A stretch of 32,000 nt of DNA from Polynucleobacter parvulilacunae (GCF_018881715.1 NZ_JACVPW010000001.1:241337-273336), one strand, 5' to 3'; counted from the first letter of the stretch, positions 3,791 to 30,275 are shown. The notes: generated by a model not told the origin, from the sequence alone. Translations and numbers: made by a program.

Positions 3791-3867
3791 TGGTGGCGAA
3801 TCAGGGATTTGAACCCCGGACCTGCGGATTATGATTCCGTCGCTCTAACCAGCTGAGCTAATTCGCC
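3791..3867 (-). tRNA. tRNA with anticodon CAU (elongator Met or lysidine-modified Ile2), CCA encoded
   Basis: The reverse complement folds as a cloverleaf: GGCGAAT TA GCTC AGCTGGTTA GAGC G ACGGA ATCATAA TCCGC AGGTC CGGGG TTCAAAT CCCTG ATTCGCC ACCA. It is not an initiator, since 1-72 is paired and there is no GGG/CCC anticodon stem. Confidence 0.9.
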
Positions 3868-3874
3868 GAACTCG
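3829..3874. repeat. island direct repeat, left copy (attL core), part of the intact tRNA
   Basis: Identical to 30199..30244. The match continues to 3879/30249 with one mismatch. It covers the tRNA 5' end through the whole anticodon loop plus 7 nt of leader. Confidence 0.9.
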
Positions 3875-3987
3875 TTATTTTAGCGTAATTTAGCCTAGAG
3901 AGCTATTTCGAGCCGCCTAAACTCTTCTTCTCTTAAAAAACGGTGTTTTTACGGTAAATCTACGGTACACACCTTGTTTACAGAATT

Positions 3988-7754: not shown

Positions 7755-9026
7755 ATGCCCAAAGAAACAGAAGTGCTTGCCCTTTTCTTTCAAAGCACCT
7801 CTACCCCTGAAAAATCACCCCAACTTAAATATCTAGAAAACCTTGCTACTGGCAAGCTAGTGCATATGAGAGATGGCAACATTACCTTATATAAGCGTGA
7901 GCGTAGCAAGCAATGGCAAATGCGCTTTAGGCTTTATGACAAGAAGTGGCACAGAGTCAGTACTGGCTACGAGGATCTGGAATATGCCAAAAAGAAAGCG
8001 GGTGATATTTACGATAGAGCCCGCTTTATGGAGGAGCTGGGATTACCGCCCTTAAACAAACGCTTTGATTCAGCGGCAGAAGCAACCAAAGTAGAACTAC
8101 AAAGCGATTTAGATAATGGCGTGGGCAAGAAAATCTATGTGGATTACATAGCTGTACTTGATAACTACCTGATTCCATTCTTTGGCAAGAAATTCCTAAC
8201 CAATATCAATCACCAAGATATTGCCGAGTACGAACTATGGCGAGCAGAGAAGATGAAACGCAAACTCATGCACTCAACCATGATGACGCACTTCTCTGCC
8301 TACAACAGGGTATTTGATTCAGCAATCAAGCGAGGATGGCTAAGCGATAAACACCCAGTTCCAAGGCTAGGCACTAAAGGCGAAAAGAGTACGCCAAGAC
8401 CCGCATTTACTAGAAAAGAGATTGATTACCTATTTGTCTTTATGAAAACTTGGAGTGAAGGCGGCAAAACAGAGGAAGCACATAACGGCAGATTGCTACT
8501 TAGGGACTACATAGAGATACTCATGGCAACAGGTATGCGCCATGGCACTGAAGCAAAGAACATTCAGTGGAAACACTTGGAGTGGCATACAGACAAGAGC
8601 ATTCGATATCTACGCATATGGGTAAGTGGCAAAACCGGTCCACGCTGGCTAATTGCAAGGCATGAAGCAGTACCCGTCATTGAGCGCCTCAAACAACGCT
8701 TTACTGAATGGGATCACTTAACGCTAGATCAACTCATAGAAGAAAAGCATGAAGAGTATTTGTGGCGGCATCCTAATGGCGAGCGCCCTTATGATTTTGT
8801 CAGTAGCTTTAAGTGGCTTATGAAGGATTCGGGCTTACTGCTATCAACTAACGGCTTAAAACGCACTTTGTACAGCTTTAGACACACCTACGCTACGTTT
8901 AGCTTAGTGGAGTGGAATATGGACATTCATACGCTAGCAAAGCAAATGGGCACGTCTGTACAAATGCTAGAACGCTTTTATAGCAAGCTCACAGCTACGC
9001 TAGCTGCAGAGAAATTAGCGGGATGA
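7755..9026 (+). CDS. tyrosine-type site-specific integrase (423 aa)
   Basis: C-terminal catalytic signature: ATGMRHGTE (Arg), SFRHTYAT (H-x-x-R), ...MGTSVQMLERFYSK (Tyr). The N-terminal arm-binding-like region is ITLYKRERSKQWQMRFRL. Confidence 0.9.
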   Translation: MPKETEVLALFFQSTSTPEKSPQLKYLENLATGKLVHMRDGNITLYKRERSKQWQMRFRLYDKKWHRVSTGYEDLEYAKKKAGDIYDRARFMEELGLPPLNKRFDSAAEATKVELQSDLDNGVGKKIYVDYIAVLDNYLIPFFGKKFLTNINHQDIAEYELWRAEKMKRKLMHSTMMTHFSAYNRVFDSAIKRGWLSDKHPVPRLGTKGEKSTPRPAFTRKEIDYLFVFMKTWSEGGKTEEAHNGRLLLRDYIEILMATGMRHGTEAKNIQWKHLEWHTDKSIRYLRIWVSGKTGPRWLIARHEAVPVIERLKQRFTEWDHLTLDQLIEEKHEEYLWRHPNGERPYDFVSSFKWLMKDSGLLLSTNGLKRTLYSFRHTYATFSLVEWNMDIHTLAKQMGTSVQMLERFYSKLTATLAAEKLAG

Positions 9027-14078: not shown

Positions 14079-14085
14079 CCAACCT

Positions 14086-14111
14086 GGTGGCAACTGCTAC
14101 AGGTTGCCACC
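14086..14111 (+). other. GC-rich 9-bp stem-loop between two co-oriented genes
   Basis: GGTGGCAAC-tgctacag-GTTGCCACC with no T-tract. This argues that the next CDS starts at 14132 rather than 14087. Confidence 0.4.
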
Positions 14112-14131
14112 AACTATTACAAGGAAAAGAC

Positions 14132-14803
14132 ATGTTTAATGAAGATCAAATCAAGCCAAAAACTGTAAACGACTTTATTTACAGCAACAAAGAATCACGT
14201 TTACGTATAGAAGATGTCGTAACCGGTGCACAACCTTTGCCATATGCTGGCAAGAGTGGTGTTTTACTATACGGCGTCTATGGCACAGGCAAAACCACTC
14301 TAGCCAATATCTTGCCAAACGCAATTGAAGTAGGCACCACAGGCCATGTTCAGGCACTACCTGAGTACTACATTGGATGTCGCCAAGGTTTAAATGGGGT
14401 TCAAGTATCGCAAACGATCGATAAGATTCTTGCCACACAAGCACTAAATGCTAGCGGTAAGCACTACATCATTCTTGATGAGGTTGATGTACTTACAAAG
14501 CAAGCGCAGGAAAGCCTTAAGTCATCACTTAATACCACTCGTGGTGTATTTGTTTTAACGACCAACAGCGTATCTAAGTTAGACAAGGGCTTACTTGATC
14601 GTTGCGTACTCGTTGAGATGAATGCAGCTGATCCAGAAGCCTATCTACCACTAGCTCACAAGATCACTGCGGCTCATGATGTCGTTTTAAACGACGAAGA
14701 TCTAATCCCAACCATCAAAGGGGCCAATGGATCACTACGTAATGTCATTAATAACGTGGCTCGCCAAGCTCGTCGTTCTAAATCAACCCAATCAGCCATC
14801 TAA
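14132..14803 (+). CDS. AAA+ ATPase, clamp-loader (RFC/DnaX)-like
   Basis: Walker A GVYGTGKTT, Walker B ILDEVDVL, sensor-1 VFVLTTN, an SRC-like LLDRC motif and the GSLRNVINNV helix typical of clamp-loader small subunits. Start chosen at the ATG after SD AAGGAAAAG. Confidence 0.75.
   Translation: MFNEDQIKPKTVNDFIYSNKESRLRIEDVVTGAQPLPYAGKSGVLLYGVYGTGKTTLANILPNAIEVGTTGHVQALPEYYIGCRQGLNGVQVSQTIDKILATQALNASGKHYIILDEVDVLTKQAQESLKSSLNTTRGVFVLTTNSVSKLDKGLLDRCVLVEMNAADPEAYLPLAHKITAAHDVVLNDEDLIPTIKGANGSLRNVINNVARQARRSKSTQSAI
14680..14696. repeat. palindrome S5 (16/17) inside the AAA+ CDS
   Basis: TGTCGTTTTAAACGACG, read in frame as D-V-V-L-N-D-E. Confidence 0.8.
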
Positions 14804-14813
14804 GGAGAAAACC

Positions 14814-15110
14814 ATGCCATCACCACACACACGTAATACAGCCACTGCAACTGAGCATATTCAGGTTGCCAACGCTTACGCTATTCGCGTGGCCAATGCG
14901 AAGTACCGCTCAGCAACTATCAACGGCGTTTTGCAGCTTGCCAATGGCAAGAACTCATTCCACGTACTTGGACAAGAACTATGTGCCAAAGCAAAACTCG
15001 CCTGGTTTGATATGGAATTTAAGAATGGATTCCGCTCAATTAACTTGAGCGATGCACAAGTTCAAATTTTGCCTAATTACACAGGCGAAGTTATTTCTAA
15101 ATATGGTTGA
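14814..15110 (+). CDS. hypothetical protein (98 aa)
   Basis: ATG preceded by TAAGGAGAAAACC, 11 bp after the AAA+ stop codon, so probably in the same operon. Confidence 0.45.
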   Translation: MPSPHTRNTATATEHIQVANAYAIRVANAKYRSATINGVLQLANGKNSFHVLGQELCAKAKLAWFDMEFKNGFRSINLSDAQVQILPNYTGEVISKYG

Positions 15111-15120
15111 GGGAATGACC

Positions 15121-15462
15121 ATGAAAAATCAATCCAACGTTGAGCAAGATGCCAACTTTGAAAATCTTGTATTGGTTAAGGGTTTTGATCTATTTTTTGA
15201 TGGTATTTGCGAAGATGACCTTAAAAAAGTTGCTTTAGACCTTGGTGGCAATTCTAGCTTTGACTTTGAAAGCCAGAAGGCAACTTATATGTTTAGCAAA
15301 GCCATCTACATTAACTTAGATAAGATTCATGAAGGCCATCGCATTGCTGATGCTACAGGGAAATATTACTCCTGTATGTATGACTGTAATTATGTGGTAA
15401 GTGAGTTATATCTGAACGTGTCTGCAAAACAATTCAATTTACTTAAAAAAGGATGGTCTTGA
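15121..15462 (+). CDS. hypothetical protein (113 aa)
   Basis: ATG after GAGGGAATGACC (alternative ATG at 15115). It is the last gene before a strong terminator. Confidence 0.45.
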   Translation: MKNQSNVEQDANFENLVLVKGFDLFFDGICEDDLKKVALDLGGNSSFDFESQKATYMFSKAIYINLDKIHEGHRIADATGKYYSCMYDCNYVVSELYLNVSAKQFNLLKKGWS

Positions 15463-15512: not shown

Positions 15513-15609
15513 TATCGTTTAAAACGACACTTCATTACACACTTACCAAACATTGCTCTAGCCTTTTGAATTTTCTACAGAAAATATTAGTGCGATCTAT
15601 TACCACTCC
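15513..15609 (+). repeat. 97-bp composite repeat R6 (includes palindrome S6, 15513..15529, A-centred)
   Basis: TATCGTTTAAAACGACACTTCATTACACAC - 38-nt variable middle - AAAATATTAGTGCGATCTATTACCACTCC. It has the same length and end blocks as R8 and R9. Confidence 0.85.
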
Positions 15610-15655: not shown

Positions 15656-16033
15656 CTAACGAGCTATCTTTGAAATTGCTGGCTTTGGTAAGCTACAAGC
15701 AGTCTTACCGATTAAATCTGCTCTAGAACTGCCACTTACCACCCAAGTCTGAGCCTCTTGCTCAAAATCCTTAATCTGAATTGAGCCTCCAAAGTCACCG
15801 CAAGTCGCAATAAATTGAGCCATGCTGTTCTTAATTCCATTATCAAAACCATAGACAACGCCCTGAACTACTTTTTTACCACTCCGAGATTTAATTTCAA
15901 TGGAGTCAGTTGACAGCGCAAGATCACCCACATCATCAATCATGATTAGGTCGGCCTTGACTGGAAATGAAAGTACAAATACCGCCAAAAAAATGGCTTG
16001 CTTAAACATATTAATCAAAGTCCCAAATTTCAT
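15656..16033 (-). CDS. secreted protein of unknown function, last gene of the efflux operon
   Basis: Carries a signal peptide (FLAVFVLSFPVKA). An alternative ATG at 16009 lies 1 nt after the OMF stop codon. Confidence 0.5.
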   Translation of the reverse strand: MKFGTLINMFKQAIFLAVFVLSFPVKADLIMIDDVGDLALSTDSIEIKSRSGKKVVQGVVYGFDNGIKNSMAQFIATCGDFGGSIQIKDFEQEAQTWVVSGSSRADLIGKTACSLPKPAISKIAR

Positions 16034-17240
16034 GAAGATCTAGGCGCATACGGTAGTAAGACTCCAGGGCATCCAAACGCATTAAATCAGCTGATAGCTG
16101 GTTCTCATTAGCAGCCTTTCTTGCGGCAATTAAGTCCGAAATAGTGCCTTCGCCTAGTACATAGGCCTTTTCAGCTGCCTGCGCCGCATCATTCTGGCTT
16201 TTTGCAGAACTCAACAATGTTTCTGCTGCCGCTTTTCTGCTCATCATCTGCGACCATAAGCGCTCAAACTCAACACTGATGCGTTGCTCTGTTTCGATCA
16301 CTCTTTGGCGACTAATTTCCGCTTCAGATGCTGCCGCAGAAGCATTAGAAAAACGAGCGCTACCGGATATTGGAAACGATAAACTGACGCCATTAATCCT
16401 TTCGGCACCACCAAACTCATTGGCGGTATATAGGCCAACCGTTGGATCCGGGAACCTGTCTAAGCTACTGCGTTTAGCTTGCAAATCAAATCGATCGGCA
16501 TCTGATTTGGCTAGCTTTAATTCATGACTGCGCTCTAGAAATTGTTGACGTAGTAATTCTTTCCTGGTTTGAAGATTAGGAATTGCATCCCATTTAAAGT
16601 TCTTGATTAATGCGATGCCTTGATATCTCTGCGTGACCGATTCACCGCTTGCGCTTTCTTGGGCCTTAGCTAGTTCCAAGAAGGCCTTGAGCCTACCTTG
16701 CTCCGCTGTTGCTAATTGAGCATCTAATCTAGCTACATCCCCAACCTTGTAGCGCACTTGGGCAATACGGCCAATCTGATCACCTAGTTGGCTATTTTTC
16801 TCGGCAACAATTCTTGATTGAAGCGCCTTTAGGTAAGCAAACCAGGTTGCTAATAAATCCTTGCTAGTTTCATGCATAGTATCGGCATACTCAATTCCAG
16901 CAAATGACTTGGTGGCATCAGAAATCCTCTCATCAACACCCCCTTTACCCCAAAAGCGAATTGGACGCTCAATGCCCGCCCAGTATTCTTGATAATTTGT
17001 GGCTCCCGGTATATTTGTTACCTTTCGACTTTGTCTAGAGCCCCTGACAACAAACTCTTGCGAACCCGAGGCGATGGCATCAGCCCTGTAATTTAAGGAG
17101 TCCTTTCTCGCATCCGCAGCTCCAATCTTAGGGTTGGAATACAGAGCATTTTTTACCTGGTCATCAGTTGGCAATAAATTATTAGCTAATGCTGAAGAAC
17201 AAACTCCAATAAATGCAGCAAATAGAATCAATTTTTTCAT
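16011..17240 (-). CDS. outer-membrane efflux factor (TolC/CzcC/CusC family)
   Basis: 409 aa with a signal peptide and the two-repeat coiled-coil pattern typical of OMFs. It shares a 4-bp ATGA overlap with the RND gene. Confidence 0.85.
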   Translation of the reverse strand: MKKLILFAAFIGVCSSALANNLLPTDDQVKNALYSNPKIGAADARKDSLNYRADAIASGSQEFVVRGSRQSRKVTNIPGATNYQEYWAGIERPIRFWGKGGVDERISDATKSFAGIEYADTMHETSKDLLATWFAYLKALQSRIVAEKNSQLGDQIGRIAQVRYKVGDVARLDAQLATAEQGRLKAFLELAKAQESASGESVTQRYQGIALIKNFKWDAIPNLQTRKELLRQQFLERSHELKLAKSDADRFDLQAKRSSLDRFPDPTVGLYTANEFGGAERINGVSLSFPISGSARFSNASAAASEAEISRQRVIETEQRISVEFERLWSQMMSRKAAAETLLSSAKSQNDAAQAAEKAYVLGEGTISDLIAARKAANENQLSADLMRLDALESYYRMRLDLHEIWDFD

Positions 17241-20200
17241 TTCTTGATCCTCTTAATAAGTTCAATTAAACGATCAAAGTGAATTTCTTCTTTAAGCTCA
17301 CCCCAATTATTTAATGCCCCGAACCGCTCATAGAGTTTGGGCAAAAGTAGCAAGGTTAATAAAGTTGATGTAATCAATCCACCAATCACCACAATCGCTA
17401 AGGGACGCTGAATTTCAGAACCTGGCCCCGTGGCAAAAAGAAGTGGAATCATTCCAAGGGCGGTAATAACTGCCGTCATCAGTACGGGGCGTAAACGCCT
17501 TTCAGTACCAAAGTGAATGACATCAGACATAGAGTCGCCTTTAACCAGACGCTCATTAAAGTGAGTGACCATCACCACCCCATTAAGGACGGCAATACCA
17601 AGTAATGCAATAAATCCGACCGATGCTGGCACAGAGAGGTATTGACCAGTTATGGTTAAAGCAACCACACCGCCAACCAATGCAAATGGGATATTAAGGA
17701 ATATGATCCCAGCCTGTATTGCCGAGCCAAAGGTCACCATCAGTATGGCGAAGATTAATCCCAATGCAATTGGGATCACAATAGCTAGCCTTGCAGCAGC
17801 CCTTTGTTGATTTTCAAACTGCCCTCCCCAAACCACATTGATAGTTTTAGGCAAGCTCAACGCAATCACTGCCGCCTGAGCATCCTTTACAAATCCTGCT
17901 AGATCTCTGCCATCAACTGACACTTGAATGCTAGCAAAGCGACTTGATTGCTCATGGTCAATCCGAATAGGTCCATCGATTTGCTTAATTTCAGCTAGTG
18001 ATGCTAATGGCCATGATTTGCCATCAGGCGCAGATATTAGCAAGTCGCTAAATGCTTCTGGGCTTGTACGAATGTAATCATTACCTCGAAGCACCAATGG
18101 CGTTCTGATGACACCATCTAAAACCACTCCAAGATTTTCACCCTCAATTTGATTACGTAATCGCTGCTGCAAGTCTTCAATCGAGAATCCAGCCTGCCCA
18201 GCCACGGTACGGTTAATCTTTAGGCTTAAGTACTGCATTCCTTCAGCACGAGGTGCAATTACCTCAGCCGCACCCTTAACATTCCGAACTGAGCCAGCTA
18301 TAGCTTGTGCAGCCTTATTAATTTCAACCAAATCACCGCCGAAAATTTTGATTGCCACATCACCGCGGGTTCCCGTAAGCATCTCGGAGACACGCATTTC
18401 AATGGGTTGGGTGAATCCATATACTAATCCAGGGAAATTCTCTAAGGTAGTCCTTAGCTTATTGGCAATATCGTCCTTGTTGCCAGACCATTCACTTTTA
18501 GGCTTGAGCACTAAAAACATATCCGTTTCATTTAAGCCCATAGGATCTAAACCCAAATCATCTGAACCTGCTCTGGCAACAATGGATTTGATCTCAGGAA
18601 CTTCTTTTAAAAATAACTGCTCCACCTGAGAATCAATGATGAGTGATTCATTTAAGGATATTGATGGGAGCTTTTGCAGCTGAACCAAGATGTCTCCTTC
18701 ATCTAGAGTAGGCATAAAGGTTTTTCCCACAATCATATAAAGAATTACCATCACACCCAACCCAATGCCAGAAGCCCTGTAAAGCCACTTGGTATTGCCC
18801 CAAACCTGATTGCGCCACTCAACATATTTCTCTGAAATCTTGCGCATGAACTTTGTCTCTTCATCTGCTTTACGCTCTAAAACAAATGAGGCTAAAGCGG
18901 GAATGACAGTAAATGCAATTAATAAGGATGAGGCGAGCGCCATAACAATTGTTAGCGCTACAGGTGAAAAGAGCTTGCCCTCCAAACCTTCAAGACTGAG
19001 CAATGGAAGAAAAACTACAGCAATAATCAATACACCAGCTACGACCGGCTTAACAACCTCATGAGTAGCAATGGAAATGATTTCCGTCTTACTTAATGCT
19101 TTTGATGTATTGGGATCAGCAAAGGCTGTTTCTACATTTTCAACCACCACCACCGCAGCATCAACCAACATACCAATAGCAATGGCTAATCCGCCCAAGC
19201 TCATCAAGTTGGCCGTTAGGCCGAATGCCTTCATTAAGATGAATGTAGAAAGTATTGAGAGCGGAAGGACAGCGGCAACCACCAGAGCGGCACGATACCC
19301 CCCTAAAAATAGATACAAAGTGATGCATACCAAAACGGTAGCTTCAAGCAAAGCCTTTGTTACAGTACCTGCTGCACGGGACACTAATTCACCACGGTTA
19401 TAGAAAGTATTTACGGTCATGCCTTTTGGCAACCTTGGTGCAATCTCAACTAGTTTTTGCTCAACCGAATCAACTAGAAGGCGAGCATTAGCGCCGCGCA
19501 AACCTAAGACCAAACCTTCTACTGCCTCTCCTTTTCCATCTTTAGTAACGGCGCCATAGCGAGTGGCCGACCCTAGGTGGACTGTAGCCACCTCATCGAG
19601 CATGACTGAGCCACCATTTGCTTTAGGGATCTGGATCTTTTTGACATCGTCCAGTTTTTTAACCGCTCCCTCAACACGAACTACTAACGTCTCCTCGCCT
19701 TGATCAATACGCCCAGCACCATCATTACTATTGTTAGTCATTACCGCTTTACGAAGATCTACCATCGTAATTCCACGAGCAGCCAATCGGGATGGATCCG
19801 GTATCACCTCATAAGTCAAAATCTCTCCGCCCAAGACATTGACTTCAGCCACACCAGGAATGGTTCGGAGCTCAGGCCGAATGATCCAGTCCAACACGGT
19901 GCGTTTATCTCTTAAGCTAAAGCCCTCACCCTCAAGAGTGAACATATAAATTTCACTTAAAGGGGTGGTAATTGGCGCCAGCCCACCAGTAGCGCCAGGC
20001 GGAAGGTCTTTTGTAAATGCATTCAAACGTTCCGAGATTTGCTGACGAGCCCAATAAATATCAGTACCATCGTCAAAATCAATCGTGATATCAGCAATGC
20101 CGTATTTAGATACCGATCTTACAATCCGCTTCTTAGGAATACTAAGCATTTCAATTTCAATCGGACGAACTACCCTCTGCTCAACCTCTTCAGGCGTCAT

Positions 20201-20365
20201 TCCCGGAATTTTCAGAATAATTTTGACTTGGGTTGGCGAGATATCCGGGAAGGCATCAATTGGCAGCGTCATCCATGCATGGATACCAAAAAGCACTAAT
20301 GCAATAGCCATTGCCAATACGAGCTTGCGAAAATGCAAACTCGCATCAATTAATTTAGTAAACAT
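17237..20365 (-). CDS. heavy-metal-efflux (HME) RND permease, CusA/CzcA family
   Basis: 1042 aa with an N-terminus (LPIDAFPDISPTQV ... YGIADITIDFDDGTDIYWARQQISERL) typical of CzcA/CusA. The TM4 motif GMLVDAAVVVVEN is closer to the CusA type. Confidence 0.95.
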   Translation of the reverse strand: MFTKLIDASLHFRKLVLAMAIALVLFGIHAWMTLPIDAFPDISPTQVKIILKIPGMTPEEVEQRVVRPIEIEMLSIPKKRIVRSVSKYGIADITIDFDDGTDIYWARQQISERLNAFTKDLPPGATGGLAPITTPLSEIYMFTLEGEGFSLRDKRTVLDWIIRPELRTIPGVAEVNVLGGEILTYEVIPDPSRLAARGITMVDLRKAVMTNNSNDGAGRIDQGEETLVVRVEGAVKKLDDVKKIQIPKANGGSVMLDEVATVHLGSATRYGAVTKDGKGEAVEGLVLGLRGANARLLVDSVEQKLVEIAPRLPKGMTVNTFYNRGELVSRAAGTVTKALLEATVLVCITLYLFLGGYRAALVVAAVLPLSILSTFILMKAFGLTANLMSLGGLAIAIGMLVDAAVVVVENVETAFADPNTSKALSKTEIISIATHEVVKPVVAGVLIIAVVFLPLLSLEGLEGKLFSPVALTIVMALASSLLIAFTVIPALASFVLERKADEETKFMRKISEKYVEWRNQVWGNTKWLYRASGIGLGVMVILYMIVGKTFMPTLDEGDILVQLQKLPSISLNESLIIDSQVEQLFLKEVPEIKSIVARAGSDDLGLDPMGLNETDMFLVLKPKSEWSGNKDDIANKLRTTLENFPGLVYGFTQPIEMRVSEMLTGTRGDVAIKIFGGDLVEINKAAQAIAGSVRNVKGAAEVIAPRAEGMQYLSLKINRTVAGQAGFSIEDLQQRLRNQIEGENLGVVLDGVIRTPLVLRGNDYIRTSPEAFSDLLISAPDGKSWPLASLAEIKQIDGPIRIDHEQSSRFASIQVSVDGRDLAGFVKDAQAAVIALSLPKTINVVWGGQFENQQRAAARLAIVIPIALGLIFAILMVTFGSAIQAGIIFLNIPFALVGGVVALTITGQYLSVPASVGFIALLGIAVLNGVVMVTHFNERLVKGDSMSDVIHFGTERRLRPVLMTAVITALGMIPLLFATGPGSEIQRPLAIVVIGGLITSTLLTLLLLPKLYERFGALNNWGELKEEIHFDRLIELIKRIKK

Positions 20366-21471
20366 TACTCGTCCTTCTGCGCAAGGGCTTTCAGAGAGGC
20401 AATACCCGTTACGGCGACTTTGACTCCATTTGAAAGTGGAGCTTGAATTGAGGCTAAGTCGTCGTCGCTTGAGATAACTGATACAGGCTGAAGAACAACG
20501 CCAGTACTAGATAGAATAAAAATAGCACTTTGACCTTTCCAACTAGTGATTGCTCTAGAAGGAACTTGCCATAAGGTTTTATCCTGCACTTTAGGCTTCA
20601 TCTTGGTCTGGATAGTTGCAGTAACAACCTCACCCATTTGCAATGTTCCGCGGTCCTCAACAACCGCCCTAACTCTAGCGGATTGAGATGCACTCACCGC
20701 CTGAGATACCCCAGTAACTTTTGCCTTTGCATTACGCGAAGCAATTACGATCTCGTCACCAGGCTGAATACCCATAGCTTTAAAGCCAGATGTATTAATT
20801 TCTAAATTGAGAGTTGAGATGTCGGCAATTCTAAATAGCAAGGTTCCAGTATCAACACGTTGACCGATTAAATTGTGAGCCTCTATTACAGTACCTGGGA
20901 TAGGAGACTTCAGAGCGCCGGTAGCATAAGAGTTAAAGGCCTCTTTGTTCTTAGGATCATCAAAGTTAATGCCTGCTGCCTTCAATTCAGATTGCCTTGC
21001 CATCAACATTGCATTAGCGTTCTCTGACTTTGCCTTAGTTATATTAAGACGAGACTGAGGAATAATGCCCTCTTTAAATAGCTCGTTGTCACGTACCAAA
21101 GCCTCTTTAGCCAAACGTGCATCAGATGTCGCCTCTAACAACATCCTTCTAGAATCACCCATCTGAGGACTTGTGAAATAAGCCAGTGGTGATCCCAACT
21201 TCACGATATCACCAATGCCCACAACCATTTGACTTAGTTGTCCAGGATAAGGGGCGGACAGGATTGCCTGCTTTTCGGGAGGCACTGTAACGGATGCGCT
21301 AACCAATACAGATCCAGCATCAACCGAAATTGCTGAGTAGAAATTAACGCCCATGGCAGCCTGTTGGCTAGCAGTTAGTTTTAATGCCTTGGGGGTAAAT
21401 TCTTGAGCAGAGAGATTTCCGCTCAATACAAGTGAACAAAGGAAAAGGGTAACAATACGAAATCGAAACAT
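20365..21471 (-). CDS. RND membrane-fusion (periplasmic adaptor) protein
   Basis: 368 aa with a signal peptide and lipoyl/hairpin/beta-barrel patterning. It overlaps the RND start by 1 nt. Confidence 0.85.
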   Translation of the reverse strand: MFRFRIVTLFLCSLVLSGNLSAQEFTPKALKLTASQQAAMGVNFYSAISVDAGSVLVSASVTVPPEKQAILSAPYPGQLSQMVVGIGDIVKLGSPLAYFTSPQMGDSRRMLLEATSDARLAKEALVRDNELFKEGIIPQSRLNITKAKSENANAMLMARQSELKAAGINFDDPKNKEAFNSYATGALKSPIPGTVIEAHNLIGQRVDTGTLLFRIADISTLNLEINTSGFKAMGIQPGDEIVIASRNAKAKVTGVSQAVSASQSARVRAVVEDRGTLQMGEVVTATIQTKMKPKVQDKTLWQVPSRAITSWKGQSAIFILSSTGVVLQPVSVISSDDDLASIQAPLSNGVKVAVTGIASLKALAQKDE

Positions 21472-23612: not shown

Positions 23613-23629
23613 TGTCGTTTTAAACGACA
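23613..23629. repeat. palindrome S7 (17/17)
   Basis: Exact copy between the MarR-like stop (23694) and the MFS start (23588), ending 24 bp upstream of the MFS ATG. Confidence 0.9.
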
Positions 23630-23693: not shown

Positions 23694-24047
23694 CTAACTC
23701 CCTTTTATTGCTTTTTCCAAGCAAACCGATAATTGCTCGTAATATTTGAATGCTTTTGCTGTGGGAGCTACGCACTTCTTTCGGCCATCGGTTTTATCTT
23801 CAGTTAACTTCACATAACCCATCGCAACGAGATTCTTTAGGCGACCATGGAGTGTAGCTTGAGAGCCAAATTGGCTCAGCTGAATTAAGTCACCTACTAA
23901 AAGCTCTTTATCCCGCGAAGCTGATAAAGAGATGTGATTTAAGAGTTGCTCTTCGGTAGAATCCAGTTTCTTACCTGGGTTCATGCAATCTAGAGCATTC
24001 AAGCAATTCAAAAAACGAATATAAGGAGATGATTTGATAGATTTCAT
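23694..24047 (-). CDS. winged-helix transcriptional regulator, MarR-like
   Basis: 117 aa. The segment LLVGDLIQLSQFGSQATLHGRLKNLVAMGYVKLTEDKTDGRKK fits an HTH plus wing. Confidence 0.6.
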   Translation of the reverse strand: MKSIKSSPYIRFLNCLNALDCMNPGKKLDSTEEQLLNHISLSASRDKELLVGDLIQLSQFGSQATLHGRLKNLVAMGYVKLTEDKTDGRKKCVAPTAKAFKYYEQLSVCLEKAIKGS

Positions 24048-24174: not shown

Positions 24175-24271
24175 TGTCGTTCAAAACGACACTTCATTAC
24201 ACGCTCATTTAAATCATTTGCAACCGCTTAAATTACTTGCTGAAATTATTAGTGCGATCTATTACTACTCC
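24175..24271 (+). repeat. 97-bp composite repeat R8 (includes palindrome S8, 24175..24191, A-centred, 16/17)
   Basis: TGTCGTTCAAAACGACACTTCATTACACGC - 38-nt variable middle - AAATTATTAGTGCGATCTATTACTACTCC. Confidence 0.85.
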
Positions 24272-25500: not shown

Positions 25501-25764
25501 TCAGCCACAGCAGCAGCCACCACTGTTTTTCTGGGCGGGAGCAGCAGATTGTTCATCCAAGTCTAAGCTAGATGGGTAGCCCTCTTCATCCAAGGCATGG
25601 ATAAGGTCACCAGATTGATCTGTCGTTCTACCAACTTGCACACGACCAGACTGTAAATCCACATGAACACTTTCAACACCATCCAACACTTCAAGAGCTT
25701 TGGTTACATGCTTTACACATGAACCACAAGTCATACCCTGCACACTTAAATTGATTTGAGGCAT
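25501..25764 (-). CDS. heavy-metal-associated (HMA) domain protein, CopZ/MerP-like, with a C-terminal Cys cluster
   Basis: GMTCGSCVKHV metal-binding loop within a ferredoxin-like fold pattern. The tail ends in GGCCCG. Confidence 0.85.
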   Translation of the reverse strand: MPQINLSVQGMTCGSCVKHVTKALEVLDGVESVHVDLQSGRVQVGRTTDQSGDLIHALDEEGYPSSLDLDEQSAAPAQKNSGGCCCG

Positions 25765-26285: not shown

Positions 26286-26900
26286 TTATTCCATCCTACA
26301 AAAGCAATATAAGAATTGTTGGGTAGTGCCCATTGGTGTTTTATGGGTTTCAGTTGAACTATTAATGAGCTTAAAAGTCTTGCCAAACTGTCCATGGAGA
26401 TTCTCTGAGTCATAGCGAACGACATCCAACCCACTACATTTCTCAGGGCCATCTGGACCAAAAGTGGACATAATCACATAACCACCATGCTTAACAGAGC
26501 GCATCACTTGCTCTACATATCTGGCTCGCTGAGCTTCTTCCGTTAAAAAGTGAAATACAGCTCTGTCGTGCCAAACATCAAAATAATTCTGAGGAAGCGT
26601 TGCCTGAGTAATATCAGCACAATACCAATGTACTTCTTCTGCTGACTTTCCCAGCCTTTCTCTAGCGACATCAATTGCTTTCTGAGAAATATCTAAAACA
26701 CTGATGTCTTGGTAACCCTCAAATAAAAGGTCGTCAACTAAAGTAGCTTCGCCGCCACCGATGTCAATAATCGCGGCATCTTTATTGGCTGTTGCTTTAT
26801 GAATGAGATTTAAGGAAGTTTCAAGATGGGGCGTATACCAACTGACAGCATCTGGTGCCTTAGTGCCGTAGACTTTTTCCCAGTGTTCTTTGTTATCCAT
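26286..26900 (-). CDS. class I SAM-dependent methyltransferase
   Basis: Motif I IIDIGGGEATL followed by the acidic loop VLDIS, in a 204-aa Rossmann-type protein. Confidence 0.8.
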   Translation of the reverse strand: MDNKEHWEKVYGTKAPDAVSWYTPHLETSLNLIHKATANKDAAIIDIGGGEATLVDDLLFEGYQDISVLDISQKAIDVARERLGKSAEEVHWYCADITQATLPQNYFDVWHDRAVFHFLTEEAQRARYVEQVMRSVKHGGYVIMSTFGPDGPEKCSGLDVVRYDSENLHGQFGKTFKLINSSTETHKTPMGTTQQFLYCFCRME

Positions 26901-26951: not shown

Positions 26952-27048
26952 TGTCGTTTTAAACGACACTTCATTGCACACCCACTTTAATCATTCTTAA
27001 GCACTTGAATTGACTAAAGAAATTATTAGTGCGATCTATTACCGCTCC
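26952..27048 (+). repeat. 97-bp composite repeat R9 (includes palindrome S9, 26952..26968, 17/17)
   Basis: TGTCGTTTTAAACGACACTTCATTGCACAC - 38-nt variable middle - AAATTATTAGTGCGATCTATTACCGCTCC. Confidence 0.85.
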
Positions 27049-27079
27049 GTGAACTCGCTAGGACTGAAATTTTTATTTG

Positions 27080-28018
27080 CTAATTTTTACGATTCTTACT
27101 ACCTATCTCGTCCATGCCATCAAGATAGTCTGAGAGCAGGTTTCGATCTGCAAGTACTCTAAATATATTACGTTGAGCAGCATGCTCTCTATGCGAGTCC
27201 TCTATTCGACACCATGAACACAGCTCTAAACCTGATACAAGTGGCTCCTTGCATGATCTACAAGTCTTCGAAGATTTAATAATTTCGACATCATTGAAAC
27301 TTAGGATATTACCCTCTAGATCAGAAAAAAATGGTTCTACAGACCCTTTTCCGATTTTCATTTCGTAATAATTACACCCGAGTTCTTGTGCATTTTTTCG
27401 CACTTTTTTAATGGTCTCTGTATTGGCCTTTGGTCCACATATAAGAGCTTTTATGCAATCTTTTGGCACATCTATCAACATAGAACTCTCATCAGACAAC
27501 CTTATTGCAGAGTCATTTACCACCATTCTACGTTCATGCTCATAACTCCAAGATGTTGCTTTTGAAAAATACGCAGCACTAAAAACTGAATTTTGAAGAA
27601 AATAAATGTATCTAGGCTTTCCTATTACAGATGCGTGATGGAGCCATTCAAATGTATCTTCATTTGGCGTATCTCGGTATTCAATATCATTGAATATACT
27701 GTTAGGAAAGTGCTCCGATAAACAGTTTTCATCAAACTCTATTACGAACCCTTGCATAGACTGGGCATAATGGGCCCACATGGGAATAACCGTCGGAGAG
27801 CGTGAAAAACAAGTAGTAGGTCGTTGAGGCAACTCGCCAATTACATCACTGTAAAAAGCCAAGTGATTTGGCTCAATCTTTGAATCAACTGCCAAGAAGA
27901 GCTCATATGGATCATTGAAATCTTTGGGATAAGAGCATTTCAACGTGACAAGATTCGCACTAGCAAATACATCATTAATATATTCAGGACTTACATACTT
28001 ATATAGATTTCTTCCCAT
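27080..28018 (-). CDS. DUF2971-like protein with a C-terminal Cys4 zinc-ribbon-like motif
   Basis: N-terminus LYKYVSPEYINDVFASANLVTLKCSYPKDFNDPYE fits the DUF2971 signature. The C-terminus reads CRSCKEPLVSGLELCSWC. Confidence 0.6.
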   Translation of the reverse strand: MGRNLYKYVSPEYINDVFASANLVTLKCSYPKDFNDPYELFLAVDSKIEPNHLAFYSDVIGELPQRPTTCFSRSPTVIPMWAHYAQSMQGFVIEFDENCLSEHFPNSIFNDIEYRDTPNEDTFEWLHHASVIGKPRYIYFLQNSVFSAAYFSKATSWSYEHERRMVVNDSAIRLSDESSMLIDVPKDCIKALICGPKANTETIKKVRKNAQELGCNYYEMKIGKGSVEPFFSDLEGNILSFNDVEIIKSSKTCRSCKEPLVSGLELCSWCRIEDSHREHAAQRNIFRVLADRNLLSDYLDGMDEIGSKNRKN

Positions 28019-28133
28019 AGCTTCCGCACCAATCTGAATGCATTAAATATTGATTAATACTAACAAGATAAGGAGCTACTTATTTGCTTGACCTATAATC
28101 AAAATAACCAATTGCCCAATTTGGAGCGTTTAG

Positions 28134-28937
28134 ATGTCCATAGAAGTTCTCGACTCATCAGCTTGGCGTGAATTTCGCGGCACACTAAGTAACTCGGGCA
28201 TCAATAAAACAACTCATTTAGCAAAAATTGCTGACATCTCAGGGAAACTTCGAGATTGCGTAGTAAAGCTACTACCCTTGAATTACCCCTCTCTTCTCGG
28301 AGAAGCAATTGGCTGGGAACTAGCCCAATCATCCGGGCTCTCTTGTGCACCATTTGCTGCAATAGTTATGGTTCCGATTTCCAGCCTACGCGAGTGCATG
28401 GACCTTCCTTCTGAATTTGATGGTATGAATGAATGCCCTGCTTGGTGCTGCGAACTTGTCGCAGGTAAGTCTGTTCGACAAGTTCACAAATGGCTGTTTT
28501 GGCTGGCCCGCCAGCAATGTCTTATGAGCAAAGATGCACGAAAAATAGCATCATTTGATTTATGGACTGACCTAATGGATCGAAATTATGGAAACGTAAT
28601 TCGAGTATCAAATAGCACCTACATCTCTATTGATCACGAGACAATTCTTCACGATTTGCTTTGGAAACCAACTGGGAAAACTTTTGAACAAAGAAGTTTG
28701 CTTTTAGAAGCCAAACAGAAACTGTCGCCAAGTAACCTTCTTCGCTTTCAAATGGATATGGCCAATGCATCAACAAAACACGCAGATGCAATATCAACCA
28801 AACAAAATGAGCTTTCTCAAATTATCGCAATGATTTATCCTCATATGGCGAGCACACTAATACCTTTGACTATGAGCACATTAACTCAGCGATCCCAATC
28901 TGGATGGCTTGCAAATACCTTAGGGGTCATAGCATGA
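28134..28937 (+). CDS. kinase-fold protein, HipA-like (putative)
   Basis: SD GGAGCGTTTAG ATG. The catalytic-loop-like FDLWTDLMDRNYGNVI followed by SIDHE resembles HipA/PI3K-type D-x-x-x-x-N ... D motifs. Confidence 0.5.
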   Translation: MSIEVLDSSAWREFRGTLSNSGINKTTHLAKIADISGKLRDCVVKLLPLNYPSLLGEAIGWELAQSSGLSCAPFAAIVMVPISSLRECMDLPSEFDGMNECPAWCCELVAGKSVRQVHKWLFWLARQQCLMSKDARKIASFDLWTDLMDRNYGNVIRVSNSTYISIDHETILHDLLWKPTGKTFEQRSLLLEAKQKLSPSNLLRFQMDMANASTKHADAISTKQNELSQIIAMIYPHMASTLIPLTMSTLTQRSQSGWLANTLGVIA

Positions 28938-29851
28938 GCAAAAATAAAATTCAGTTTGATGAGGATTTCTCTCATCTACAACGTCTCGCCAAAAAACCCC
29001 CTAAAGCCCTATTTAATGGGGCTTGGAGCACTTTAGAGCTCCAACCAGATGCATTTTCTCCACAACGCTTCACAATTGGAGTTGTCGTTCAGACTCCAGG
29101 CGAACGTTTGCATTTTAAATTACTAGATGATTTCAAAAAATTTGAATGCATATACAGAGATAGCTTTCCTCAAAAATCAATCCGAGAAATAATGACTTAT
29201 GCTGAGGAGCTTTTAAGAAAATGTGTACATAACAAAACTAGCATTCCAGAAATTGAATTTAGTACTAATTGCCTTAGTCTCTCTAAACCACTCTTCATAT
29301 CTGGAGATAATTGGGAAACAACTATAGAGCGACTATTTAAAGAGGTTGTAGCTATGGCTCCAAGTACTGCCTCAAAATCCTATGGATTCGAGTCTATTGA
29401 CACGCCACATGCAAGAAAAATCGTTAACGATGAATTAAAACGTATAGCAAACTTGGACTACGATCGGATTGTTAATCAAAATAGTCAAGGGGTTTTGCTC
29501 GAAGAAGCTGGGGAGTTCCATCATTTAGACCTAAACCTCATCACTACACGAGCATGTGGAAGCGTGATTTCTGCCGTCTATAAGTCAACCCAAAGCGTTG
29601 AGCTAAACCTTCTTAAATCCAGCCGAGATCTGACTACCTATTCCCGAGTTAAGGATCTTAAACATGTTGGCCTCTTTCTCCTCACTCCAGACCCTGATTC
29701 CATAGACTCAAAAGATTTCAAAAAAATTGAAAATGTTATTGATGAGTATGAGTGGAAGTTAGAACAAGATGGCTTTCAAGTTGTAAGCCTTCCATCACCC
29801 ATAGATTTGGCAACAGAGATTTACAACTGGGCTAAGCCCACTTTTGCATAA
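28934..29851 (+). CDS. DUF3037-like protein (305 aa)
   Basis: The start shares an ATGA overlap with the upstream stop codon. The N-terminal LELQPDAFSPQRFTIGVVVQTPGERLHFKLLDD resembles the DUF3037 signature. Confidence 0.5.
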   Translation: MSKNKIQFDEDFSHLQRLAKKPPKALFNGAWSTLELQPDAFSPQRFTIGVVVQTPGERLHFKLLDDFKKFECIYRDSFPQKSIREIMTYAEELLRKCVHNKTSIPEIEFSTNCLSLSKPLFISGDNWETTIERLFKEVVAMAPSTASKSYGFESIDTPHARKIVNDELKRIANLDYDRIVNQNSQGVLLEEAGEFHHLDLNLITTRACGSVISAVYKSTQSVELNLLKSSRDLTTYSRVKDLKHVGLFLLTPDPDSIDSKDFKKIENVIDEYEWKLEQDGFQVVSLPSPIDLATEIYNWAKPTFA

Positions 29852-29949: not shown

Positions 29950-29966
29950 TGTCGTTTTAAACGACA
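29950..29966. repeat. palindrome S10 (17/17)
   Basis: Exact copy 233 bp inside the right island border. The following roughly 78 nt end in CCGCTCC at 30044, so this may be a degenerate 95-bp relative of the 97-bp element. Confidence 0.9.
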
Positions 29967-30198
29967 CCTTTGAATGCCCGTTAATGGCAGGCTGATCTGC
30001 ACAGCTAGAAAATCATCCGTTCCCCGACCACTACCCTCCGCTCCAAGCCATATGCTAGAACGCTTTTGTCCAGCAAAACCTTATTCTTTAGTACTTTGCG
30101 GGTGGTGTGTCACACGGTGTGTGCTACGGTGAAAACCTTGGGTTTGTAAGTCGTTGAATTTATTGACTTTTAGGGTCGGACAACCTGGACGCTGTGCT

Positions 30199-30244
30199 TT
30201 ATGATTCCGTCGCTCTAACCAGCTGAGCTAATTCGCCGAACTCG
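30199..30244. repeat. island direct repeat, right copy (attR core): orphan tRNA 5' half
   Basis: Identical to 3829..3874. The adjacent 30171..30198 is only weakly similar to the tRNA 3' half and cannot form anticodon or T stems. Confidence 0.9.
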
Positions 30245-30246
30245 CT

Positions 30247-30275
30247 ATTGTAAATGATCAGAGCCTATCTGTCTA
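30247..30275 (-). promoter_or_regulatory. putative ancestral tRNA promoter, now in front of the orphan tRNA 5' half
   Basis: The minus strand reads TAGACA-17 nt-TACAAT, ending 9 nt before the position of the tRNA 5' end. The island-side copy keeps only TAAAAT, at 3877..3882. Confidence 0.35.

What the first reader, a model, noticed from the sequence alone, without database searches (positions are those of the whole stretch)
27080..29851. A palindrome-delimited three-gene block (DUF2971-like / HipA-like kinase fold / DUF3037-like) is a candidate defence or abortive-infection system
The block is exactly bounded by R9 and S10. It has a divergent layout: a DUF2971-like protein with a C-terminal Cys4 ribbon on one strand, and a translationally coupled pair (ATGA overlap) on the other. 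That pair is a HipA-like kinase-fold protein (DRNYGN...IDHE) and a 305-aa protein with a DUF3037-like N-terminus.

HipA-type kinases are growth-arrest toxins, and DUF2971 and DUF3037 are uncharacterised families. The position in an island next to another defence-like block fits a phage-defence or toxin-antitoxin role. I know of no experimentally characterised system with this composition.
Basis: inference. Interest (0 to 1): 0.7.

Follow-up and report, generated by a model that had tools for sequence, protein, structure and literature searches.

The report
Two adjacent phage-defence-type gene modules
The three genes are best read as two separate, mobile anti-phage-type modules side by side: a lone predicted ADP-ribosyltransferase, and a kinase toxin with its partner protein. 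Relatives of both have recently been shown to defend bacteria against phages, so this is a divergent new example of known kinds rather than a new three-gene system.

Summary
The three ORFs, the ATGA overlap, the DRNYGN/IDHE kinase motifs, the Cys4 ribbon and the flanking palindromes are all real. The window is from Polynucleobacter sp. Ross1-W9.

**Gene A (27080-28018, minus strand)** is a clear DUF2971 protein and matches PADLOC's single-gene candidate PDC-S31. DUF2971 is a predicted DarT-like ADP-ribosyltransferase, and one member, lactococcal Aristaios, defends alone.

**Genes B and C (28134-29851)** form a translationally coupled pair: a HipA_2-like kinase and a DUF3037-related protein.
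- They are adjacent in 21 of 21 testable related loci.
- The pair also occurs on small ColE1 plasmids and directly downstream of cI in a temperate Pseudomonas phage.
- It is a divergent sister of PDC-M66 / DS-6 ("HipAD"). There the kinase is needed for defence, and deleting the DUF3037 gene of a related pair is toxic.

**A is not a conserved partner of B-C.** It lies next to B-C only in one closely related metagenomic contig.

**The palindrome is not specific to this block.** It occurs 10 times in the window, all inside a tRNA-Met-bounded island. Synteny with related contigs breaks at these palindromes, so they may mark module junctions.

Verdict: a defence role is plausible, but this is not one system and not uncharacterised. 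New member of known kinds.

The parts
26952..27048 (.). A 97-nt repeated element. It begins with the 15-bp palindrome GTCGTTTTAAACGAC (26953-26967) and ends with AAATTATTAGTGCGATCTATTACCGCTCC. It lies just 3' of gene A.
   Evidence: other copies are at 15513 and 24175 in the window, and in L021, L033, L034 and L036. Similarity between the window and contig L021 starts exactly here.
27080..28018 (-). Gene A, 312 aa: a DUF2971 protein (predicted ADP-ribosyltransferase-like) with a C-terminal CxxC-x10-CxxC zinc ribbon. It is read here as a stand-alone single-gene defence candidate of the PDC-S31 / Aristaios type.
   Evidence: Pfam PF11185, 1.5e-10, above threshold. All five PADLOC PDC-S31 models hit, best 6.6e-27. 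Invariant Y159-E160-x-E162 and the four Cys. Homologues stand alone in varied contexts.
28019..28133 (.). Divergent A/B intergenic region. It contains a conserved TGACCTATAAT (a likely -10 element for the B-C operon) and a GGAG ribosome-binding site before B.
   Evidence: Alignment with L021. The consensus promoter scan found no full sigma-70 match here, so the promoter assignment is an inference.
28134..28937 (+). Gene B, 267 aa: a minimal HipA_2-like (HipA / PI3-4-kinase-type) protein kinase and the predicted toxin. The predicted catalytic Asp is D149, with Mg-binding residues N154 and D167 and ATP-binding Lys K45.
   Evidence: HipA_2 in 43/48 homologues. (invariant residues). (pLDDT 86.5, pTM 0.86). 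(Foldseek hits to VPS34/PI3K, Ser/Thr kinases and HipA 3dnv_A). (D149 aligns with DS-6A D139, the residue whose mutation abolishes defence).
28934..29851 (+). Gene C, 305 aa: the two-domain partner and predicted antitoxin/sensor. The N-domain (about residues 25-140) is related to DUF3037. The C-domain (about residues 155-305) is alpha/beta and weakly resembles restriction-endonuclease / XPF-Mus81 folds. Its start overlaps the B stop (ATGA).
   Evidence: model and fold hits. (276 remote representatives; DUF3037 in 28/54; PDC-M66B in 21/54, N-domain only). (hhalign to the DS-6B N-domain, E 6e-5). (overlap conserved in 25/26 pairs).
29951..29965 (.). The right-hand copy of the 15-bp palindrome, 100 nt after the C stop.
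3791..3882 (-). tRNA-Met gene (3791-3867) plus the left copy (3822-3882) of a 61-bp direct repeat. This is the proposed left end of the island that carries the block.
30192..30252 (-). The right copy of the 61-bp direct repeat (a partial tRNA-Met 5' part, 92% identical over the 61 bp). This is the proposed right end of the island, about 340 nt beyond gene C.

Best explanation
The interval holds two independent, horizontally mobile defence-type modules. They happen to lie next to each other at the distal end of a roughly 26-kb tRNA-Met-associated island of Polynucleobacter sp. Ross1-W9.

**Module 1, gene A.** A is a stand-alone DUF2971 protein: a predicted DarT/AbiGi-like ADP-ribosyltransferase core (ExE = E160/E162) fused to a zinc ribbon. 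By analogy with the lactococcal single-gene system Aristaios, it would ADP-ribosylate a nucleic-acid or protein target after infection and abort it.

**Module 2, the B-C operon.** This is a toxin-antitoxin-like pair.
- B is a minimal HipA_2-type kinase with catalytic Asp D149.
- C is made in step with B through the ATGA stop/start overlap. It would hold B inactive, probably through its DUF3037-like N-domain.
- On infection C would be titrated, lost, or switched by a ligand sensed through its nuclease-fold-like C-domain. B would then phosphorylate an essential host factor and stop growth. By analogy with HipA and HipT, that factor would be an aminoacyl-tRNA synthetase.

**Status of each step.**
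- Shown here: homology, conserved catalytic residues, strict pairing and coupling, mobility, and independence of A from B-C.
- Taken from published relatives: the kinase is required for defence, and loss of the DUF3037 partner is toxic.
- Inferred: the trigger, the substrate, and the role of the C-domain.
For: **A is a recognised single-gene type.**
- Pfam DUF2971 is above threshold, and all five PDC-S31 models hit, best 6.6e-27.
- Published work describes DUF2971 as an ART-like HYE-clade domain with a conserved ExE motif, similar to DarT/AbiGi (PMC12522546). Aristaios is a 316-aa DUF2971 protein that defends alone with an abortive phenotype (PMC11381338).
- Homologues of A lie beside umuDC-like genes, a TIR operon, IS elements or helicases. 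None lies beside a B-C pair.

**B-C is an autonomous pair.**
- C directly follows B in 19 of 19 testable genome loci, plus L021 and L022.
- The stop/start overlap is present in 25 of 26 pairs.
- The other neighbours vary and are often defence-like: WYL plus SNF2/NOV_C helicase, Mrr, Fic.
- Remote pairs lie on 3.4-6.4-kb ColE1 plasmids and directly downstream of cI in temperate phage vB_PaeS-D14P, and in a prophage-like contig.

**Link to the validated systems.**
- HipA_2 hits 43 of 48 B homologues, and B has a kinase fold.
- hhalign of the B family against DS-6A gives E 3.2e-5 and aligns D149 with D139.
- DUF3037 hits 28 of 54 and PDC-M66B hits 21 of 54 remote C homologues. hhalign against the DS-6B N-domain gives E 6e-5.
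- DS-6A and DS-6B themselves hit PDC-M66A/B at about 1e-15, and they share the same gene order and 4-nt overlap.

**Function of the relatives.**
- The DS-6A catalytic mutant loses defence (PMC13092281).
- In the Retron-Sda1 operon, deleting the kinase abolishes defence and deleting DUF3037 is toxic (PMC12548924).

**A-profile search.** The A-family profile finds a hit in only 1 of the 22 other B-C loci.
Against: - A-B-C are inherited together, at 74% nucleotide identity, in the one close relative available (L021). A functional link within this lineage is therefore not excluded.
- B and C themselves fail the curated Pfam and PADLOC thresholds. The link to PDC-M66/DS-6 rests on remote profile matches (hhalign probabilities 65-73%) and on intermediate sequences.
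- The matches to PDC-M66B and DS-6B cover only the N-domain of C. The C-domain has only weak fold matches.
- No member of this sister family has been tested. Toxicity, neutralisation, trigger and substrate are all inferred.
- The best structural matches of B are lipid kinases (VPS34, TM about 0.5) as much as HipA (TM 0.45). A non-protein substrate cannot be excluded.
Confidence: 0.65

Rival explanations
1. This is the first reader's view: one integrated three-gene system. The DUF2971 protein and the kinase/DUF3037 pair would work together, sharing the divergent promoter region. For example, the ADP-ribosyltransferase could act as sensor or second effector.
For: - The layout is divergent with only 115 bp between A and B.
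- The whole stretch from the palindrome through A, B and C is colinear at 74.4% nucleotide identity with contig L021, whose left-hand context differs.
Against: - None of the 20 genome loci, nor L022, has a DUF2971 gene near B-C.
- The five loci examined for three close A homologues, and two plasmid loci, have no B-C pair.
- A matches a single-gene PADLOC candidate, and a DUF2971 protein defends alone.
- HipA/DUF3037 pairs defend alone.
- L021 carries the same palindrome and 97-nt element. Its synteny therefore looks like shared ancestry, not independent association.
Confidence: 0.1
2. B-C is a toxin-antitoxin addiction module. Its selected role would be to stabilise the island, plasmid or prophage that carries it, with no meaningful anti-phage activity.
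For: - Some small ColE1-type plasmids carry little besides rop, an HTH gene and this pair.
- The pair sits at the edge of an island.
- Deleting the DUF3037 partner is toxic in a relative.
Against: - Two independent relatives protect against phage in a kinase-dependent way.
- Neighbours are often defence-like.
- The two roles are not mutually exclusive.
Confidence: 0.15
3. B is not a toxin. It would be a small-molecule or lipid kinase, or a signalling kinase, with C as its regulatory or substrate-presenting partner in some housekeeping or stress pathway.
For: - The best Foldseek matches are PI3K/VPS34 and PI4K.
- Some databases name homologues 'PI3K/PI4K catalytic domain'.
- Sequence matches to HipA_2 are sub-threshold.
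Against: - The pair has a patchy, mobile distribution on islands, small plasmids and phages, with variable neighbours.
- It is homologous, though remotely, to DS-6A, where the aligned Asp is required for defence.
- HipA itself is among the fold hits.
Confidence: 0.07

Closest known systems
DS-6 / 'HipAD' of E. coli (DefensePredictor, PMC13092281; Brenes & Laub 2025, cited there as ref. 35) = PADLOC candidate PDC-M66
   Same: - It is a two-gene operon with a roughly 250-270-aa HipA-like kinase first and a roughly 275-305-aa DUF3037-type protein second, overlapping by 4 nt.
- The catalytic loop (N/M)DR...N and the IDH(E/N) motif align, and D149 aligns with the validated D139.
- The N-domain of C aligns with the DUF3037 domain of DS-6B.
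- Both are mobile and prophage-associated.
   Different: - DS-6A and DS-6B hit PDC-M66A/B at about 1e-15, with DS-6B matching over its full length. B and C give no hit, and their relatives reach only 5e-5 to 6e-3, confined to the kinase core or the N-domain.
- The C-terminal half of C does not align with DS-6B's DUF1829-annotated region.
- No member of the window's family has been tested.
HipA-like kinase / DUF3037 pair inside the Retron-Sda1 operon (PMC12548924)
   Same: It has the same two domain families in the same functional logic. Deleting the kinase abolishes defence, and deleting DUF3037 is toxic.
   Different: That pair is embedded in a retron operon, and its DUF3037 protein has a C-terminal region resembling the retron DNA-binding protein. 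Here there is no reverse transcriptase or ncRNA, and the C-domain is different.
Classical HipBA / HipBST type II toxin-antitoxin systems
   Same: The kinase catalytic core is HipA-type and a HipA structure is among the fold hits. The expected mode of toxicity is growth arrest through phosphorylation.
   Different: - B is about 170 aa shorter than HipA.
- There is no HipB-type HTH antitoxin upstream, and the partner gene follows the kinase rather than preceding it.
- The partner is unrelated to HipB or HipS.
Aristaios (Lactococcus plasmid single-gene defence) and PADLOC candidate PDC-S31; more distantly the DarT toxin of DarTG
   Same: - Gene A is a protein of about 310 aa dominated by DUF2971.
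- The family is predicted to be ART-like with an ExE motif.
- It is autonomous and found in variable, mobile contexts.
   Different: - A's subfamily has an invariant C-terminal Cys4 zinc ribbon followed by a conserved helix.
- No direct sequence comparison with Aristaios was possible here.
- There is no DarG-like antitoxin next to A.
- ART activity is predicted, not shown, and no model of A was made.

Membership tests
HipA-like kinase + DUF3037 defence pair (PDC-M66 / DS-6 / HipAD) | First protein is a HipA_2-type kinase with an intact catalytic loop. | tested here: met
   The kinase fold model has pTM 0.86. Foldseek hits kinases, including HipA. K45, E57, D149, R150, N154 and D167 are invariant. 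PF20613 hits 43 of 48 homologues, although the window protein scores 22.9 bits against a gathering score of 27.
HipA-like kinase + DUF3037 defence pair (PDC-M66 / DS-6 / HipAD) | Kinase matches the PADLOC PDC-M66A model. | tested here: not met
   B gives no hit at E<=1. Only 5 of 48 homologues hit, best 2.9e-4. The positive control DS-6A hits at 6e-15.
HipA-like kinase + DUF3037 defence pair (PDC-M66 / DS-6 / HipAD) | Second protein carries a DUF3037 domain. | tested here: inconclusive
   Neither C nor any of 46 close homologues hits. However, 28 of 54 remote full-length homologues hit, best 7e-9, and these match the C profile at 1e-14 to 1e-90. hhalign of that family against the DS-6B N-domain gives E 6e-5, probability 65%.
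HipA-like kinase + DUF3037 defence pair (PDC-M66 / DS-6 / HipAD) | Second protein matches PDC-M66B over its full length, including the DUF1829-annotated C-terminal part. | tested here: not met
   C gives no hit. Relatives hit only profile positions 5-76 of 281, whereas DS-6B matches positions 6-271. Fold matches of the C-domain to XPF/Mus81 and to a DUF1828-annotated phage protein are weak.
HipA-like kinase + DUF3037 defence pair (PDC-M66 / DS-6 / HipAD) | The kinase gene comes first and the partner immediately follows, translationally coupled, and the pair is conserved as a unit. | tested here: met
   C follows B in 21 of 21 testable loci. The ATGA/GTGA overlap is present in 25 of 26 pairs. 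DS-6 has the same layout.
HipA-like kinase + DUF3037 defence pair (PDC-M66 / DS-6 / HipAD) | Phage defence depends on the kinase, and losing the partner is toxic. | not testable with these tools
   This is known only for relatives.
Classical HipBA toxin-antitoxin | A HipB-type HTH antitoxin is encoded upstream of, and co-transcribed with, the kinase. | tested here: not met
   The upstream gene is the divergent DUF2971 gene. No HTH family hit was found for A or C.
DUF2971 single-gene defence (PDC-S31 / Aristaios type) | DUF2971 domain above the curated threshold, and a PDC-S31 model match. | tested here: met
   PF11185 scores 42.7 bits against 22. All five PDC-S31 models hit, best 6.6e-27.
DUF2971 single-gene defence (PDC-S31 / Aristaios type) | Autonomous gene with no conserved partner. 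| tested here: met
   Neighbours differ in seven loci of close or plasmid-borne homologues. 514 plasmid records carry homologues.
DUF2971 single-gene defence (PDC-S31 / Aristaios type) | ART-like catalytic core with an ExE motif. | tested here: inconclusive
   Y159-E160-x-E162-R-R is invariant in 40 homologues, which fits the published ExE motif. No structure of A was predicted, and no PDB relative was found by sequence.
DUF2971 single-gene defence (PDC-S31 / Aristaios type) | Abortive-infection phenotype. | not testable with these tools
   This has been shown only for Aristaios.
Integron gene cassette (considered for the 'palindrome-delimited' claim) | A cassette is bounded by an attC site of about 57-141 bp with R''/L''-L'/R' cores, next to an IntI integrase with attI and Pc. 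| tested here: not met
   The repeat core is a 15-bp perfect palindrome with no RYYYAAC/GTTRRRY cores (the attC definition is from general knowledge). The block holds three genes on both strands. The island's recombinase-like gene (7755..9026) hits Phage_integrase only weakly, and IntI identity was not tested.

The most novel reading that the evidence does not exclude
The 15-bp palindromes are junction or recombination sites of a non-integron cassette array. In this reading the tRNA-Met island of Polynucleobacter is assembled from modules, and [97-nt element + A + B + C] is one of them. Modules would be swapped at these palindromes, possibly by the island's own tyrosine recombinase, whose gene is itself flanked by two copies. 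The three-gene block would then be a mobile defence cassette in a previously undescribed module-exchange system.

The evidence does not exclude this:
- All 10 copies in the window lie inside the island.
- A related island (L036) has 7 copies with different gene content between some of them.
- Three of 13 synteny breakpoints fall within 9 nt of a palindrome, against about 0.13 expected.
Probability: 0.15. Interest if true: 0.7.

Novelty: new member of a known kind. Interest (0 to 1): 0.3.

Why it matters
The kinase/partner pair belongs to a sizeable sister family of the recently validated HipA-DUF3037 defence systems. The family has 276 clusters at 50% identity and occurs on chromosomal islands, small plasmids and temperate phages. 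Current Pfam and PADLOC models miss it.

Recognising this family would extend defence-system catalogues. It would also give a second, diverged lineage for asking how a DUF3037 protein restrains and releases a HipA-like kinase.

The adjacency with a DUF2971 gene is an example of defence genes clustering, not a new composite system.

The island-wide palindrome may be the more original lead, but it needs whole-genome and comparative data.

Tried and rejected
- **Direct family assignment of C.** Pfam, NCBIfam and PADLOC gave nothing for C or for 46 close homologues. The narrow-family profile against DS-6B also gave nothing. Only the broad family made the link.
- **Solved structures by sequence.** Searches with the A, B and C family profiles found no meaningful relatives.
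- **Exact-sequence look-up of B.** It found no contig.
- **An apparent second A/B co-occurrence.** The equal contig length of 2519 for P0246 and P0024 is not a real co-occurrence. L022's upstream gene does not match the A-family (DUF2971) profile and is homologous to L004's upstream gene, which is chalcone-isomerase-like.
- **Integron attC reading of the palindrome.** Rejected on length and core motifs (see the membership test).
- **Palindrome as intrinsic terminator.** There is no T-run, and the terminator scan does not pick these sites.
- **Sigma-70 promoter between A and B.** No consensus match was found. Only a conserved TATAAT is present.
- **Rfam.** No RNA family was found in the block or in the 97-nt element at gathering thresholds.
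- **The Brenes & Laub 2025 HipAD paper.** It is not held and could not be read.
Full report
**1. What is in the sequence**

The interval holds three ORFs:
- A = 27080..28018 on the minus strand, 312 aa.
- B = 28134..28937 on the plus strand, 267 aa.
- C = 28934..29851 on the plus strand, 305 aa.

A and B are divergent across 115 bp. The B stop and the C start overlap as ATGA. The proteins are 100% identical to hypothetical proteins ICN18_01365 and ICN18_01370 of Polynucleobacter sp. Ross1-W9, so the window comes from that betaproteobacterium.

The palindrome GTCGTTTTAAACGAC lies 113 nt beyond the A stop and 100 nt beyond the C stop.

**2. Gene A**

- A matches Pfam DUF2971 above threshold (42.7 against 22 bits, residues 80-165). 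It also matches all five PADLOC models of the single-gene candidate PDC-S31, best 6.6e-27.
- An alignment of 40 homologues at 50-66% identity shows an invariant N-terminal region, residues 6-41. NCBI's gene model is 271 aa, so it starts 41 codons into the ORF and omits this region. By my reading of the sequence, residue 42 is a TTG codon.
- The same alignment shows an invariant Y159-E160-x-E162 and an invariant CxxC-x10-CxxC at C253, C256, C267 and C270.
- Published work assigns DUF2971 to the ADP-ribosyltransferase superfamily. It is placed in the HYE clade, has an ExE motif, and resembles DarT and AbiGi (PMC12522546). A 316-aa lactococcal DUF2971 protein, Aristaios, acts as a single-gene abortive-infection defence (PMC11381338).
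- Close homologues of A stand alone in unrelated settings: next to umuDC-like genes, next to a TIR operon, in an integrase-bearing island, and beside IS elements on conjugative plasmids. In all, 514 plasmid records carry homologues.

**3. Gene B**

- The window protein hits Pfam HipA_2 (PF20613) below threshold, 22.9 against 27 bits. The same family is hit by 43 of 48 homologues.
- K45, E57, D149, R150, N154 and D167-H168-E169 are invariant.
- The AlphaFold model is confident (pLDDT 86.5, pTM 0.86). Its Foldseek matches are VPS34/PI3K/PI4K, Ser/Thr and Tyr kinases, and E. coli HipA (3dnv_A, TM 0.45).
- The kinase fold is therefore confirmed. The HipA_2 assignment is reasonable but remote.

**4. 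Gene C**

- No library recognises C or its 46 close homologues.
- A full HMMER search of 1.84 billion representatives with the family profile found 276 relatives, 187 of them at E<=1e-10. Most are full-length proteins of 280-300 aa.
- Of 54 such remote homologues, 28 hit DUF3037 (best 7e-9) and 21 hit PADLOC PDC-M66B (best 1.2e-7). The PDC-M66B matches cover only the N-terminal 70 or so profile positions.
- The model (pLDDT 80.8) has two domains, about residues 25-140 and 155-305.
- The C-domain has weak matches to XPF/Mus81-Eme1 nuclease folds.
- In the viral library, the whole protein matches two unnamed phage proteins (E 1e-12 and 2e-9) and a DUF1828-annotated protein (E 1.5e-4).

**5. Which genes belong together**

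- A scan of one genome per species returned 20 loci with a B relative. C follows B in all 19 loci where the DNA continues, and also in the metagenomic loci L021 and L022.
- The ATGA/GTGA overlap is present in 25 of 26 pairs examined, including remote ones.
- A profile of the A family finds a hit next to B-C only in L021.
- Elsewhere the neighbours vary: WYL plus an SNF2/NOV_C helicase (L003, L007), WYL plus a DUF499-like protein (L015), Mrr (L010, L018), Fic (L002), and ordinary genes.
- Remote C homologues also have a B-like kinase immediately upstream.
- The pair also occurs on 3.4-6.4-kb ColE1-type enterobacterial plasmids, where the kinase is annotated 'HipA family kinase'. It also lies directly downstream of cI in the temperate Pseudomonas phage vB_PaeS-D14P.
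- B-C is therefore an autonomous, mobile two-gene module, and A is not part of it.

**6. Relation to known systems**

Published relatives:
- HipA-like kinase plus DUF3037 is PADLOC candidate PDC-M66.
- In the Retron-Sda1 operon, deleting the kinase abolishes defence against Bas51. Deleting DUF3037 is toxic. The retron parts are dispensable (PMC12548924).
- E. coli DS-6, renamed HipAD, defends in a manner that requires a predicted catalytic residue of the kinase (D139A in the strain list). AlphaFold3 predicts an A-B complex and DNA binding by the partner (PMC13092281).

Comparison using the DS-6 sequences from that paper's supplement:
- DS-6A and DS-6B hit PDC-M66A/B at 6e-15 and 3.8e-16, and DS-6B matches over its full length.
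- The B family aligns to DS-6A over the kinase core (hhalign E 3.2e-5, probability 73%). D149 falls on D139.
- The broad C family aligns to the DUF3037 domain of DS-6B (E 6e-5, probability 65%) but not to its C-terminal half.
- Gene order and the 4-nt overlap are the same.

I conclude that B-C is a divergent sister family of PDC-M66/DS-6. It has the same design and the same predicted logic, with the kinase as toxin and the DUF3037 protein as neutraliser. It lies outside the reach of current models and has not been tested.

**7. The palindromes and the island**

- The palindrome has 10 copies in the window against 0.01 expected. All lie between 3989 and 29965. That span sits inside an island bounded by tRNA-Met (3791-3867, minus strand) and a 61-bp direct repeat of its 5' part (3822-3882 and 30192-30252, 92% identical).
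- The island carries NERD, a Schlafen-type helicase, an integrase-like gene, an integrase fragment, an AAA ATPase, an MFS transporter and a MarR-like regulator. By length and sequence inspection only, not profile-tested, the large ORFs at 16011-21471 look like an RND efflux system, 25501..25764 like a CopZ-like metal-binding protein, and 26286..26900 like a SAM-dependent methyltransferase.
- Most copies lie between transcription units, often 20-130 nt upstream of a start codon.
- Three copies extend into a 97-nt element.
- The palindromes therefore do flank the block, but they flank nearly every unit of the island.

They are not irrelevant, however:
- Contig L021 is colinear with window 26952-29575 at 74.4% identity. 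The similarity starts exactly at the palindrome, and different genes lie to its left.
- A related island (L036; helicase and integrase 94% identical) has 7 copies, and different genes lie between some of them.
- Overall, 3 of 13 synteny ends fall within 9 nt of a palindrome, against about 0.13 expected.

The palindromes could be recombination or junction sites, or operators of an island regulator. I could not decide between these.

**8. Verdict**

- The defence interpretation is plausible for both modules by homology.
- The claim of a single three-gene system is not supported. The claim that no characterised counterpart exists is out of date.
- This is a new, divergent member of known kinds, of moderate to low interest.
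- The island-wide palindrome is a separate lead worth following.

Noticed in passing
window 3989, 7680, 9033, 11943, 14681, 15514, 23614, 24176, 26953, 29951; L036 (7 copies); L021 2443: A 15-bp palindrome, GTCGTTTTAAACGAC, occurs 10 times in the window (0.01 expected). All copies lie inside the tRNA-Met-bounded island, mostly between transcription units. Synteny with related contigs breaks at or within 9 nt of three copies (26952, 4006, 9024). It could be a module junction or recombination site, or an operator.
   Followed up: partly
window 15513-15609, 24175-24271, 26952-27048; L021 2442-2541; L033, L034, L036: A 97-nt repeated element: the palindrome plus ACTTCATTRCAC, a variable middle, then TTGAATTGACTAAAGAAATTATTAGTGCGATCTATTACCGCTCC. 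In the four copies examined (three in the window and one in L021) it lies just 3' of a minus-strand gene. It has no Rfam match and its function is unknown.
   Followed up: partly
window 3791-3882 and 30192-30252: A tRNA-Met gene and a 61-bp direct repeat (92% identical) bracket a mosaic island of about 26 kb. The repeat covers the 5' 46 nt of the tRNA plus 15 nt upstream. It is the 5' part of the tRNA that is duplicated, not the usual 3' part.
   Followed up: partly
window 23694-24047 (-), with palindromes at 23614 and 24176: A 117-aa MarR-like winged-helix gene is itself flanked on both sides by the palindrome. It is a candidate regulator that binds these sites.
   Followed up: no
window 7755-9026 (+), with palindromes at 7680 and 9033: A 423-aa integrase-like gene with weak, sub-threshold Phage_integrase hits is flanked by two palindromes. 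It is 94% identical at the nucleotide level to L036, together with the neighbouring Schlafen-type helicase (5655-7640). NERD (4615-5238) is replaced by other genes in L036.
   Followed up: partly
window 11943-11957 inside ORF 11790-12356; L036 5011: A one-mismatch palindrome variant lies inside an integrase-fragment ORF. The equivalent position in the related island L036 also carries a one-mismatch copy.
   Followed up: no
window 27896-28018 (the first 41 codons of gene A): The NCBI protein for gene A is 271 aa, so its model starts 41 codons into the 312-aa ORF (residue 42 reads as TTG). The omitted 41 residues include 13 positions that are invariant across 40 homologues (for example KCSYPKDFNDPYELF). 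The longer ORF is therefore likely to be correct.
   Followed up: partly
L038 (Pseudomonas phage vB_PaeS-D14P 30065-31818); L037 (Klebsiella plasmid NZ_AP022141.1): Homologues of the B-C pair lie directly downstream of the cI repressor of a temperate phage. They are also the main cargo of 3.4-6.4-kb ColE1-type plasmids.
   Followed up: yes
L003 5365-9877, L007 5382-9834, L015 6192-9893: A WYL-domain gene lies divergently upstream of B-C in three unrelated genomes. It is accompanied by a large SNF2/NOV_C helicase in L003 and L007, and by a DUF499-like protein in L015. This may be another defence module that tends to sit next to the pair.
   Followed up: partly
window 12348-15462: This block has two ORFs with no Pfam hit (12348-13130 on the minus strand, 13275-14078), an AAA ATPase (14087-14803) and two small ORFs that were not scanned. 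It is partly conserved in L036 at 68-69% identity.
   Followed up: no
L012 10886-11320; L013 10001-10750: In two Caballeronia genomes the pair looks decayed. C is truncated in L012. B is truncated in L013, which has also lost the overlap.
   Followed up: no
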